From Escherichia coli (lineage in GTDB: Bacteria > Pseudomonadota > Gammaproteobacteria > Enterobacterales > Enterobacteriaceae): a stretch of 64,000 nt of DNA. The position numbers were made by a program, and so were the translations under genes. Location of the stretch: assembly GCF_044324785.1 (NCBI RefSeq), contig NZ_CP172127.1; one strand, given 5' to 3'. The notes under the pieces were generated by a model, which was not told the DNA's origin, ran no database searches, and saw only the letters and a program-made list of their open reading frames with translations. Position 1 is the stretch's first letter. Each line of letters opens with the position of its first letter. Shown piece after piece: positions 33,011-38,210 of this stretch.

Positions 33011-34552
<1,542 letters not shown>

Positions 34553-34734
34553 AAAAGTTTGATGCTCAAAGAATTAAACTTCGTAATGAATTACGTGTTC
34601 ACTCTTGAGACTTGGTATTCATTTTTCGTCTTGCGACGTTAAGAATCCGTATCTTCGAGTGCCCACACAGATTGTCTGATAAATTGTTAAAGAGCAGTTG
34701 CGACGCGGCTTTCAGCTCACTGTCGCGAGGTGGC

Positions 34735-34766
34735 GTATATTACGCTTTCCTCTTTCAGAGTCAACC
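34735..34766 (-). promoter_or_regulatory. rrnH P2 promoter (-35 TTGACT, 16-nt spacer, -10 TAATAT)
   Basis: Minus-strand hexamers at plus coordinates 34759-34764 (-35) and 34737-34742 (-10). Confidence 0.7.
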
Positions 34767-34844
34767 CTAAATTTCAGGATTTTTCTCTTCAACCGAACCG
34801 GCTGTTTGTGTGAAGTGATTCACATCCGCCGCGTCGATGGAGGC

Positions 34845-34902
34845 GCATTATAGGGAGTCGGCTCAGGAAGACAAGCGGAAAAATGCATTTTTATTTCAAC
34901 CG
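34845..34902 (-). promoter_or_regulatory. rrnH P1 promoter with AT-rich UP element (-35 TTGTCT, 16-nt spacer, -10 TATAAT)
   Basis: Minus strand reads TTGTCTTCCTGAGCCGACTCCCTATAATGCGCCTCC, closely resembling rrn P1 core promoters; AT-rich tract upstream (plus 34879-34900). Confidence 0.8.
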
Positions 34903-34917
34903 CTCATCTTTTAATCA

Positions 34918-35490
34918 TTACGCCGGTTTTTGCTGCTTTTTTATCGCTTGCGGCAGGTCTGCCAGGCTATTTAACACCCAATCCGCCGCGTTTTCTGCTT
35001 CAGGCGTAACAGGTTTACCCGTACGCACCAGCACTTTTGTTCCCACGTTCGCCGCAGCCGCTGCCTGCATATCTTCTAATTTATCGCCCACCATATAAGA
35101 AGCGGCCATATCAATATGCAAATAATCGCGTGCCGATAAAAGCATCCCCGGATGTGGTTTGCGGCAGTCGCAGACCTGGCGAAACTCTTCAACACTACCC
35201 TGCGGATGATGCGGGCAATAATAGATGCCATCCAGATCGACATCGCGGTCCGCCAGCGACCAGTCCATCCACTCGGTCAGCGTTTCAAACTGTGCTTCAG
35301 TAAATTTACCGCGAGCAATGCCAGACTGGTTGGTTACTACCACCAGCGCAAAGCCCATTTTTTTTAGCTCGCGCATGGCGTCAATAACACCGTCGATAAA
35401 TTCAAAGTTGTCGATCTCATGGACATAGCCGTGATCGACATTAATGGTGCCATCACGGTCAAGAAAAATTGCGGGTACGCTCTTCGCCAC
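34918..35490 (-). CDS. gmhB: D-glycero-beta-D-manno-heptose-1,7-bisphosphate 7-phosphatase
   Basis: 190 aa; HAD motif ([10 protein letters not shown]); conserved position upstream of rrnH. Confidence 0.93.
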
Positions 35491-35579
35491 CTTTTATAGC
35501 TCCTTAATAAGGCATGTGACGCTAGTATCGCATGTTTCGACCAGCAAGAAAGTGCTCTTCGCATAAACCTGATTGATTT

Positions 35580-35595
35580 AGACGTCTGGATGCCT
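35580..35595. promoter_or_regulatory. MetJ operator (tandem met boxes) upstream of metN
   Basis: Perfect AGACGTCT followed by degenerate GGATGCCT, about 85 nt upstream of the metN start. Confidence 0.65.
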
Positions 35596-35677
35596 TAACA
35601 TCCATTTCATTGACGGCGTTGCCCGTTCCAGGCATTCGAAATGCCACGACTAACTTAATGACGATAATAAATAATCA

Positions 35678-36709
35678 ATGATAAAACTTTCGAATATCAC
35701 CAAAGTGTTCCACCAGGGCACCCGCACCATCCAGGCGTTGAACAACGTCAGCCTGCATGTGCCAGCTGGACAAATTTATGGCGTTATCGGTGCCTCAGGC
35801 GCGGGTAAGAGTACGCTTATACGTTGTGTAAACCTGCTGGAGCGCCCAACCGAGGGTAGCGTGCTGGTCGATGGCCAGGAACTGACCACGCTGTCAGAAT
35901 CCGAGTTGACCAAAGCTCGCCGCCAGATTGGTATGATTTTCCAGCATTTTAACCTGCTCTCTTCACGTACTGTTTTTGGCAACGTGGCTCTGCCGCTGGA
36001 GCTGGACAACACACCGAAAGATGAGATCAAACGTCGCGTGACGGAATTGCTGTCATTGGTTGGTCTTGGCGATAAGCATGATAGCTACCCGTCGAATCTT
36101 TCCGGTGGGCAGAAACAGCGTGTGGCGATTGCCCGTGCGTTAGCCAGCAATCCCAAAGTATTGCTGTGTGATGAGGCCACCAGCGCGCTGGATCCGGCAA
36201 CGACACGTTCTATTCTCGAACTGCTGAAAGACATCAACCGCCGTCTGGGTTTGACGATTCTGTTGATCACCCACGAAATGGACGTTGTGAAGCGCATTTG
36301 TGATTGCGTGGCGGTCATCAGCAATGGCGAACTGATCGAGCAGGACACGGTAAGTGAAGTGTTCTCGCATCCGAAAACGCCGCTGGCGCAGAAGTTTATT
36401 CAGTCGACCCTGCATCTGGATATCCCGGAAGATTACCAGGAACGTCTGCAAGCGGAGCCATTCACTGACTGCGTGCCGATGCTGCGTCTGGAGTTTACCG
36501 GTCAATCGGTCGATGCCCCACTGCTTTCTGAAACCGCGCGTCGTTTCAACGTCAACAACAACATTATTAGCGCGCAGATGGATTACGCCGGTGGCGTTAA
36601 GTTCGGCATCATGCTGACTGAAATGCACGGCACACAACAAGATACGCAAGCCGCCATTGCCTGGCTGCAGGAACACCATGTAAAAGTAGAGGTACTGGGT
36701 TATGTCTGA
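35678..36709 (+). CDS. metN: Methionine ABC transporter ATP-binding protein
   Basis: 343 aa; Walker A (GASGAGKST), ABC signature (LSGGQKQR). Confidence 0.95.
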
Positions 36710-37355
36710 GCCGATGATGTGGCTGCTGGTTCGTGGCGTATGGGAAACGCTGGCAATGACCTTCGTATCCGGATTTTTTGGGTTTGTGATTGGTCTGCCG
36801 GTTGGCGTCCTGCTTTATGTCACGCGTCCGGGGCAAATTATTGCTAACGCGAAGTTGTATCGTACCGTTTCTGCGATTGTGAACATTTTCCGTTCTATCC
36901 CGTTCATTATCTTGCTGGTATGGATGATTCCGTTTACCCGAGTTATTGTCGGTACATCGATTGGTTTGCAGGCAGCGATTGTTCCGTTAACCGTTGGTGC
37001 AGCACCGTTTATTGCCCGTATGGTCGAGAACGCTCTGCTGGAGATCCCAACCGGGTTAATTGAAGCTTCCCGCGCAATGGGTGCCACGCCAATGCAGATC
37101 GTCCGTAAAGTGCTGTTACCGGAAGCATTGCCGGGTCTGGTGAATGCGGCGACTATCACCCTGATTACCCTGGTCGGTTATTCCGCGATGGGTGGTGCAG
37201 TCGGTGCCGGTGGTTTAGGTCAGATTGGCTATCAGTATGGCTACATCGGCTACAACGCGACGGTGATGAATACGGTACTGGTATTGCTGGTCATTCTGGT
37301 TTATTTAATTCAGTTCGCAGGCGACCGCATCGTCCGGGCTGTCACTCGCAAGTAA
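36702..37355 (+). CDS. metI: Methionine ABC transporter permease
   Basis: 217 aa; multi-TM permease; overlaps metN stop. Confidence 0.95.
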
Positions 37356-37394
37356 CGTTCAACACAACATAAATAATTGAAGAAGGAATAAGGT

Positions 37395-38210
37395 ATGGCG
37401 TTCAAATTCAAAACCTTTGCGGCAGTGGGAGCCCTGATTGGATCACTGGCATTGGTAGGCTGCGGTCAGGATGAAAAAGATCCAAACCACATTAAAGTCG
37501 GCGTGATTGTTGGTGCCGAACAGCAGGTTGCAGAAGTCGCGCAGAAAGTTGCGAAAGACAAATATGGTCTGGACGTTGAGCTGGTAACCTTCAACGACTA
37601 TGTTCTGCCAAACGAGGCATTGAGCAAAGGCGATATCGACGCCAACGCCTTCCAGCATAAACCGTACCTTGATCAGCAACTGAAAGATCGTGGCTACAAA
37701 CTGGTCGCAGTAGGCAACACTTTTGTTTATCCGATTGCTGGTTACTCCAAGAAAATCAAATCACTGGATGAATTGCAGGATGGTTCGCAGGTTGCCGTGC
37801 CAAACGACCCAACTAACCTTGGCCGTTCTCTGCTGCTGCTGCAAAAAGTGGGCTTGATCAAACTGAAAGATGGTGTTGGCCTGCTGCCGACAGTTCTTGA
37901 TGTTGTTGAGAACCCAAAAAATCTGAAAATTGTTGAGCTGGAAGCACCGCAGCTGCCGCGCTCTCTGGACGACGCGCAAATCGCTCTGGCAGTTATCAAT
38001 ACCACCTATGCCAGCCAGATTGGCCTGACTCCGGCGAAAGACGGTATCTTTGTCGAAGATAAAGACTCCCCGTACGTAAACCTGATCGTGACGCGTGAAG
38101 ATAACAAAGACGCCGAGAACGTGAAGAAATTCGTCCAGGCTTATCAGTCTGACGAAGTTTACGAAGCAGCAAACAAAGTGTTTAACGGCGGCGCTGTTAA
38201 AGGCTGGTAA
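37395..38210 (+). CDS. metQ: Methionine-binding lipoprotein
   Basis: 271 aa; lipoprotein signal (LALVGC). Confidence 0.95.
   Translation: MAFKFKTFAAVGALIGSLALVGCGQDEKDPNHIKVGVIVGAEQQVAEVAQKVAKDKYGLDVELVTFNDYVLPNEALSKGDIDANAFQHKPYLDQQLKDRGYKLVAVGNTFVYPIAGYSKKIKSLDELQDGSQVAVPNDPTNLGRSLLLLQKVGLIKLKDGVGLLPTVLDVVENPKNLKIVELEAPQLPRSLDDAQIALAVINTTYASQIGLTPAKDGIFVEDKDSPYVNLIVTREDNKDAENVKKFVQAYQSDEVYEAANKVFNGGAVKGW

What the first reader, a model, noticed from the sequence alone, without database searches (positions are those of the whole stretch)
35580..35595. MetJ operator upstream of metNIQ
A perfect met box (AGACGTCT) immediately followed by a degenerate second box lies in the gmhB-metN intergenic region, consistent with MetJ/SAM repression of the methionine transporter operon.
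Basis: partly seen in the sequence, partly recalled or inferred. Interest (0 to 1): 0.2.

Follow-up and report, generated by a model that had tools for sequence, protein, structure and literature searches.

The report
Known MetJ operator at metN promoter
This is the already published binding site of the methionine repressor MetJ, sitting on top of the promoter of the E. coli methionine-import operon metNIQ; it is real and conserved, but textbook-level and not new.

Summary
AGACGTCT GGATGCCT lies at 35580-35595 in the 187-bp gmhB-metN intergenic region of an E. coli chromosome. The site is one box longer than reported. With the published metbox matrix it is three tandem boxes, AGACGTCT|GGATGCCT|TAACATCC (35580-35603, 20.43 bits). 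It is the only site in the 64-kb window that passes the published thresholds, and 0 of 500 shuffles reach its score. It is letter-for-letter the E. coli K-12 metN operator listed by Augustus & Spicer 2011 (3 boxes, 20.45 bits, 74 bp from the ATG). They measured 20-fold MetJ-dependent repression and report a gel-shift assay of the tested operators. A published transcription start (Kim et al. 2012; K-12 222714 = window 35609) places the boxes at -29 to -6. They fill the 17-bp spacer between a conserved -35 (TTGATT) and a -10 (TAACAT) that is itself the start of box 3. Most likely mechanism: SAM-loaded MetJ dimers bind cooperatively and block RNA polymerase. The arrangement recurs upstream of metN in 81 Enterobacterales genomes fetched here. 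Verdict: interpretation supported, already known, low interest. Side observation: a conserved CCACGG motif in the metN leader remains unexplained.

The parts
35580..35587 (.). metbox 1, AGACGTCT (perfect consensus; -29..-22 relative to the TSS)
   Evidence: 12.58 bits with the published matrix; sequence; listed in the published K-12 metN operator
35588..35595 (.). metbox 2, GGATGCCT (-21..-14)
   Evidence: 4.22 bits, above the published per-box threshold of 3.145. A natural E. coli variant GGATACCT exists. Other Enterobacterales have AGACGCCT here.
   Evidence: 3.63 bits; part of the published 3-box site. TAACATCC in 58 of 81 orthologous sites. The variants TACCATCC (13) and TAGCATCC (5) keep TAnnAT.
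35573..35578 (+). -35 hexamer of the metN promoter, TTGATT (17-bp spacer to the -10)
   Evidence: Position fits the published TSS. It was not part of my search pattern, yet it is TTGATT in 53 and TTGACT in 23 of 81 orthologous regions. The hexamer assignment is inference.
35596..35601 (+). -10 hexamer of the metN promoter, TAACAT
   Evidence: Ends 7 nt upstream of the mapped TSS; conserved as TAnnAT in all 81 sites. The hexamer assignment is inference.
35609..35609 (+). metN transcription start site (A)
   Evidence: Kim et al. 2012 supplementary table: NC_000913 222714 (-), 83 reads, 5' UTR 69 nt, upstream sequence ...TTGATTTAGACGTCTGGATGCCTTAACATCCATTTCA. Coordinates map as K-12 = 258323 - window. 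Klebsiella pneumoniae has the equivalent TSS and the same upstream sequence.
35609..35677 (+). 69-nt metN 5' leader
   Evidence: From the TSS to the ATG. No Rfam family match. Contains the CCACGA motif at 35644-35649.
35678..38210 (+). regulated operon metN (35678-36709), metI (36702-37355), metQ (37395-38210)
   Evidence: ORFs; RefSeq annotation of matching E. coli genomes
34918..35490 (-). divergent neighbour gmhB (not known to be MetJ-regulated)
   Evidence: ORF; annotation. The gmhB-metN synteny holds in 79 of the fetched loci.

Best explanation
Window 35580-35603 is the MetJ operator of the metNIQ (metD) methionine ABC-importer operon. It consists of three contiguous 8-bp metboxes that occupy -29 to -6 of the sigma-70 promoter: -35 TTGATT at 35573-78, a 17-bp spacer, -10 TAACAT at 35596-601, and the TSS at A35609. 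When methionine, and therefore S-adenosylmethionine, is plentiful, SAM-bound MetJ dimers (ribbon-helix-helix) bind one per box. They are stabilised by dimer-dimer contacts, nucleated on the perfect box 1, and extend over the weaker boxes 2 and 3. This array covers the spacer and the -10 hexamer and keeps RNA polymerase off the promoter. When SAM falls, MetJ leaves and the importer is made. What is shown: the sequence, its score and its uniqueness in the window; identity to the published operator; the TSS position; cross-species conservation; and, in the literature, MetJ-dependent repression in vivo. What is inferred: the hexamer assignments, promoter occlusion as the step blocked, the order of box occupancy, and actual occupancy of box 3.
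For: Three-box site, 20.43 bits, unique in 64 kb; 0 of 500 shuffles reach that score. Identical to the published K-12 metN operator, with the same 74-bp gap to the ATG. Ec.metN-lacZ repression ratio of 0.05 in wild type versus delta-metJ; the same study ran a gel-shift assay on the tested operators. [quoted passage not shown] Salmonella delta-metJ shows metN log2FC 4.27 in the comparison with wild type. The experimental TSS at window 35609, and the same promoter in Klebsiella, put the boxes at -29..-6. In 81 Enterobacterales loci the pattern lies 54-96 bp (median 75) upstream of the metN ATG. Flanking -35 and -10 elements that were not part of the search pattern are conserved there, while the rest of the intergenic region diverges. 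The published unbiased survey found metboxes at metNIQ in 121 of 122 Enterobacterales genomes, including Erwinia and Yersinia. Within E. coli, 5207 of 5424 genomes are identical over 35566-35615. The variant examined carries a G-to-A change that the metbox matrix tolerates.
Against: Nothing contradicts it. Four caveats apply. (1) My cross-species set was selected on boxes 1-2, so their conservation there is by construction; only the flanks are independent evidence. (2) Box 3 doubles as the -10 hexamer. In 18 of 81 species it changes to TACCATCC or TAGCATCC, which weakens the metbox but preserves the -10. Its conservation may therefore owe more to the promoter than to MetJ, and Erwinia is scored as a 2-box site in the literature. 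(3) No footprint or point-mutation data for this particular operator were accessible here; the two 2002 primary papers and Marincs 2006 are not held. (4) Occlusion, as opposed to another step of initiation, is inferred from geometry.
Confidence: 0.95

Rival explanations
1. The block 35573-35603 is conserved only because it is the metN core promoter. The resemblance of the spacer to metboxes is incidental, and MetJ does not act here.
For: The boxes coincide with the promoter spacer and -10. Box 3 variants preserve the -10 rather than the metbox.
Against: Sigma-70 spacers are not normally sequence-constrained, yet this one scores 12.58 + 4.22 bits as metboxes. Published delta-metJ data show about 20-fold derepression, alongside a gel-shift assay. 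Yersinia keeps the register with different but still metbox-like letters, AGCCGTCT AGACGCCT.
Confidence: 0.02
2. AGACGTCT is a chance palindrome (it contains the GACGTC palindrome) with no function.
For: A single 8-mer is expected 0.55 times per window; 42 of 100 shuffles have at least one.
Against: The three-box score is not reached in 500 shuffles. The position and orientation upstream of metN recur in 81 genomes from many genera. It is a published functional operator.
Confidence: 0.01
3. The inverted repeat TGGATGCCTTAACATCCA (35587-35604), followed by TTTCATT, is an intrinsic terminator or attenuator hairpin.
For: Flagged by the consensus terminator scan: 6 pairs, 3 of them G-C.
Against: It lies upstream of the mapped TSS at 35609, so it is not in the metN transcript. 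The upstream gene gmhB diverges, so no transcript ends here. The T tract is poor. The symmetry is what two adjacent palindromic metboxes produce.
Confidence: 0.01
4. The operator is shared and also represses the divergent gmhB gene. This is an addition to the main explanation, not a replacement.
For: The site is only 89 bp from the gmhB start codon. MetJ sites are shared by the divergent pairs metJ/metB and metE/metR.
Against: The published table lists the site for metN only, although it duplicates shared sites for divergent genes. The same study shows that a shared intergenic region need not mean regulation, with exbB next to metC as the example. The conserved candidate gmhB promoter (extended -10 TGcGATACT, reverse complement of 35524-35532) lies about 50 bp from the boxes. 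There is no functional link between heptose synthesis and methionine.
Confidence: 0.05

Closest known systems
E. coli K-12 metN (b0199, formerly abc) MetJ operator, as listed in Augustus & Spicer 2011 Table S1 (PMC3228920)
   Same: Identical 24-bp sequence, box count, score (20.45 versus 20.43 bits) and 74-bp distance to the ATG. The whole 187-bp intergenic region differs from K-12 at 3 positions, none in the operator or promoter.
   Different: Nothing in the operator. This window comes from another E. coli lineage; only 496 of 5424 genomes are at least 99% identical over the 1.9-kb query.
Other MetJ operators of the met regulon (metA, metB/metJ, metC, metE/metR, metF, metK, mmuP)
   Same: Tandem, unspaced 8-bp AGACGTCT-like repeats close to the regulated gene's start. 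There are 2-4 boxes per site, at about 5-11 bits per box on average.
   Different: metN has one perfect box plus two weak ones (6.8 bits per box on average). metB/J, metA and metF carry four boxes, and metC two strong ones.
Yersinia, Serratia and Hafnia-type metN operator
   Same: Same register, same third box TAACATCC, and a similar distance to the ATG (71 bp in Y. pestis).
   Different: Boxes 1-2 read AGMCGTCT AGACGCCT, so box 2 is the stronger. The -35 is TTGACT, closer to consensus.

Membership tests
MetJ operator (metbox array) | Two or more contiguous 8-bp repeats resembling AGACGTCT, with no spacing between them | tested here: met
   AGACGTCT|GGATGCCT|TAACATCC at 35580-35603
MetJ operator (metbox array) | Each box at least 1/4 of the consensus score and the whole site at least the consensus score (12.58 bits), using the published information matrix | tested here: met
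   12.58, 4.22 and 3.63 bits, total 20.43; the only such site in 64 kb; 0 of 500 shuffles as high
MetJ operator (metbox array) | Located in or next to the promoter of a methionine-related gene | tested here: met
   Boxes at -29..-6 of the experimentally mapped metN TSS; downstream genes are metN, metI and metQ
MetJ operator (metbox array) | Conserved at the orthologous position in other MetJ-bearing species | tested here: met
   81 Enterobacterales loci carry it upstream of metN, though these were ascertained on boxes 1-2. The independent published survey found 121 of 122 Enterobacterales genomes.
MetJ operator (metbox array) | Bound by MetJ with SAM in vitro and required for MetJ- and methionine-dependent repression in vivo | not testable with these tools
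   Literature only. Ec.metN repression ratio of 0.05, with a gel-shift assay run on the tested operators. [quoted passage not shown] Salmonella delta-metJ metN log2FC 4.27. No box-mutation data were seen.
MetJ operator (metbox array) | The genome encodes MetJ | not tested
   metJ is not near this locus and I did not look for it in the window. The window is E. coli, and E. coli K-12 carries metJ as b3938.

The most novel reading that the evidence does not exclude
The operator itself is known. What the evidence does not exclude is a second, undescribed layer of control in the 69-nt metN leader. A CCACGG motif (CCACGA here, 35644-35649) sits at a fixed ~34 nt upstream of the ATG in 54 of 81 Enterobacterales leaders, even where the rest of the leader has diverged. 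Lineage-specific 5'-proximal hairpins and the absence of a recognisable Shine-Dalgarno sequence accompany it. Together these could form a post-transcriptional element, such as an sRNA or protein binding site, or a stability or translation determinant.
Probability: 0.2. Interest if true: 0.3.

Novelty: already known. Interest (0 to 1): 0.06.

Why it matters
It confirms that a sequence-only reader can correctly call a classical repressor site. The annotation gains little: the site is already in the literature, with in-vivo repression data and comparative genomics. The modest additions here are an explicit placement of the three boxes on the experimentally mapped promoter (-29 to -6) and the point that box 3 is also the -10 hexamer. 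That overlap may explain why box 3 is conserved even in species where it is a poor metbox.

Tried and rejected
(1) Single-box and two-box consensus searches are not significant on their own. The published matrix was needed.

(2) The promoter scan proposed ATGCCA-16-GATAAT (35641-35668) on the plus strand and a minus-strand site overlapping the metN ATG. I rejected both as the metN promoter because the published TSS is at 35609. The true promoter, TTGATT-17-TAACAT, matches only 8 of 12 positions and fell below the scan's threshold.

(3) The terminator-like hairpin at 35587-35604 is rejected. It lies upstream of the TSS and is a by-product of metbox symmetry.

(4) A fourth box is rejected. The upstream octamer ATTGATTT scores -9.9 bits and the downstream ATTTCATT scores -19.4 bits.

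(5) The Rfam search of 35400-35800 at E<=1 found nothing.

(6) RNAalifold on 42 Enterobacteriaceae leaders predicted no consensus pairs. Explicit pair counting for two hand-drawn hairpins gave 75.4% paired versus 73.3% in shuffles, with few compensatory changes, which is inconclusive. Single-sequence folds of the first 36 nt gave a median z of -1.19 and were strong only in the Yersinia, Serratia and Hafnia type.

(7) The primary papers Gal 2002, Merlin 2002 and Marincs 2006 are not held in the library. A text search for papers combining metN, MetJ and 'transcription start site' found none.

(8) 37 of the 120 genome-contig hits had neither metN nor gmhB beside the match, and most of those visible in the listing come from unrelated phyla. 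I treated them as chance occurrences of a 17-mer in 298 Gb.

Full report
**1. What is in the sequence**

Positions 35580-35595 read AGACGTCT GGATGCCT. The stretch lies in a 187-bp gap between a minus-strand ORF (35490..34918) and a plus-strand ORF starting at 35678. Megablast against complete E. coli genomes matches 5424 of 5426 genomes. It names the genes gmhB, metN and metI, and metQ follows. So the window is E. coli chromosome and the gene context was also called correctly.

**2. Is it more than chance?**

- One AGACGTCT per 64 kb is roughly what chance gives (0.55 expected; 42 of 100 shuffles have at least one).
- The double consensus with up to 3 mismatches occurs in 10 of 100 shuffles.

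I therefore used the published information matrix and thresholds for metboxes (Augustus & Spicer 2011, Table 3):
- The site grows to three contiguous boxes, AGACGTCT (12.58 bits), GGATGCCT (4.22) and TAACATCC (3.63). These span 35580-35603 and total 20.43 bits.
- It is the only site in the window that passes the thresholds.
- Shuffled windows give 0.65 qualifying sites on average, but none of 500 reaches 20.43 bits.
- The flanking octamers are far from metbox-like (-9.9 and -19.4 bits), so there is no fourth box.

**3. It is a published site**

Table S1 of Augustus & Spicer lists, for E. coli K-12 b0199 metN, 'agacgtctggatgccttaacatcc', 3 boxes, 20.45 bits, 74 bp from the start of translation. 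The window has the same 24 letters and the same 74-bp gap (35604-35677). The whole intergenic region differs from K-12 MG1655 at three positions, all outside the operator and promoter.

The functional evidence in the literature is as follows:
- A lacZ fusion driven by the 400 bp upstream of E. coli metN had a repression ratio of 0.05 in wild type versus delta-metJ. The same study ran a gel-shift assay on the tested operators, but I could not read the metN lane.
- In Salmonella, the comparison of delta-metJ with wild type lists metN at log2 fold change 4.27.
- A second comparative study places metNIQ in the core MetJ regulon.

**4. Where it sits relative to the promoter**

By eye, TTGATT (35573-78), 17 bp, then TAACAT (35596-601) looked like the promoter. 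It matches only 8 of 12 consensus positions, so the consensus scan missed it and offered two other candidates instead.

The supplementary TSS table of Kim et al. 2012 settles the question. It gives the E. coli metN TSS at NC_000913 222714 (-), with 83 reads, a 69-nt 5' UTR and the upstream sequence ...CTGATTGATTTAGACGTCTGGATGCCTTAACATCCATTTCA. With the mapping K-12 = 258323 - window, this is A35609. Klebsiella pneumoniae has the equivalent TSS (71-nt UTR) behind the same sequence.

The boxes therefore lie at -29..-22, -21..-14 and -13..-6. Boxes 1-2 are essentially the spacer, and box 3 begins with the -10 hexamer. That geometry makes steric exclusion of RNA polymerase the natural mechanism. 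This last step is inference.

**5. Related sequences**

- In 83 loci the match has metN and/or gmhB beside it.
- In 81 loci the metN start codon lies 54-96 bp (median 75) downstream of box 3.
- In 79 loci gmhB also diverges upstream, a median of 89 bp from box 1.
- The genera span Escherichia, Citrobacter, Enterobacter, Klebsiella, Kosakonia, Cedecea, Yersinia, Serratia, Rahnella, Hafnia, Budvicia, Dickeya, Erwinia, Pantoea, Tatumella, Xenorhabdus and Moellerella.
- The other 37 hits had neither gene beside the match; most of those visible in the listing are from unrelated phyla, so I treated them as chance.

Because the set was selected on boxes 1-2, only the flanks carry independent information. 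The -35 is TTGATT in 53 loci and TTGACT in 23. Box 3 is TAACATCC in 58, TACCATCC in 13 and TAGCATCC in 5. The -10 is always TAnnAT. The surrounding intergenic DNA is much less conserved.

The box 3 variants lower the metbox score; 24% of the sites fall below the per-box threshold. They leave the -10 intact, which suggests that box 3 is conserved at least partly as a promoter element.

The unbiased figure comes from the literature: metboxes at metNIQ in 121 of 122 Enterobacterales genomes. Examples are a 2-box site in Erwinia and AGCCGTCTAGACGCCTTAACATCC in Yersinia pestis.

Within E. coli, 5207 of 5424 genomes are identical over 35566-35615. The variant I inspected has GGATGCCT changed to GGATACCT, a change the matrix tolerates.

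**6. Rivals**

- 'Promoter only, not an operator' conflicts with the delta-metJ data and with a spacer that scores as two metboxes.
- 'Chance palindrome' conflicts with the three-box score and the conservation.
- The terminator-like hairpin at 35587-35604 lies upstream of the TSS. It is simply the symmetry of adjacent metboxes.
- A shared operator that also controls gmhB is not excluded, but nothing supports it. The published table lists the site for metN only. The same authors showed that exbB, which shares the metC intergenic region, is not regulated. The conserved candidate gmhB promoter lies about 50 bp away.

**7. Side observations in the leader**

There is no Rfam match.
- Many lineages have a 5'-proximal hairpin built from different sequences: GCTTTGG/CCAAAGC in Yersinia, ACCTTGG/CCAAGGT in Serratia, CGGGG/CCCCG in Rahnella.
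- Within Enterobacteriaceae, RNAalifold finds no consensus structure and the pair counts are inconclusive.
- A CCACGG motif (CCACGA here, 35644-35649) occurs in 54 of 81 leaders at about 34 nt from the ATG, against 0.7 expected from composition. Relatedness inflates that figure, but the motif persists where neighbouring bases have diverged. I have no explanation for it.
- metN also lacks a recognisable Shine-Dalgarno sequence.

**8. Verdict**

The feature is a known member of a known family, described in the literature with functional data. Interest is low.

Noticed in passing
window 35596-35603: The third metbox TAACATCC doubles as the -10 hexamer (TAACAT). Across 81 orthologous sites the variants TACCATCC and TAGCATCC weaken the metbox but keep TAnnAT. 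Its conservation may therefore be driven by the promoter as much as by MetJ.
   Followed up: partly
window 35644-35649 (CCACGA; CCACGG in most other species): A conserved motif in the metN 5' leader lies about 34 nt upstream of the ATG. It occurs in 54 of 81 Enterobacterales leaders against 0.7 expected from composition. It is retained in Yersinia, Serratia, Hafnia, Erwinia and Pantoea, where neighbouring bases differ. Its role is unknown.
   Followed up: partly
window 35612-35627 and 35631-35645: Two small hairpins lie in the leader: GACGG/CCGUU just after the TSS, and GGCAUU/AAUGCC. Other families have a 5'-proximal hairpin of unrelated sequence, very stable in Yersinia and Serratia (z of -4 to -7). 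Within Enterobacteriaceae, RNAalifold and the pair counts are inconclusive.
   Followed up: partly
window 35661-35680: metN has no recognisable Shine-Dalgarno sequence. The bases before the ATG are ACGATAATAAATAATCAATG. This A/T-rich block is itself conserved, and Yersinia and Serratia have AAGAA-like sequences there instead.
   Followed up: no
window 35523-35538, minus strand: A strongly conserved block, TAGTATCGCATGTTTC, contains the reverse-complement sequence TGcGATACT. This is an extended -10 that probably serves the divergent gmhB gene. CTCC at 35500-35503 is the complement of a GGAG Shine-Dalgarno for gmhB. Kim et al. 2012 list no gmhB TSS.
   Followed up: no
window about 36694 (K-12 221629), inside the 3' end of metN: Kim et al. 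2012 list a weak internal TSS (14 reads) 8 nt upstream of metI. This suggests some metIQ transcription that would escape the MetJ operator.
   Followed up: no
window 37356-37394 / metQ: metQ is listed as a verified or conserved target of the GcvB small RNA (region R1). The operon therefore has a known post-transcriptional layer besides MetJ. I did not locate the pairing site in the window.
   Followed up: no
window about 33400-34900: Only short, overlapping ORFs occur in all frames downstream of gmhB. By synteny with K-12, where rrsH follows gmhB, this is probably the start of the rrnH ribosomal RNA operon on the minus strand. Not checked.
   Followed up: no
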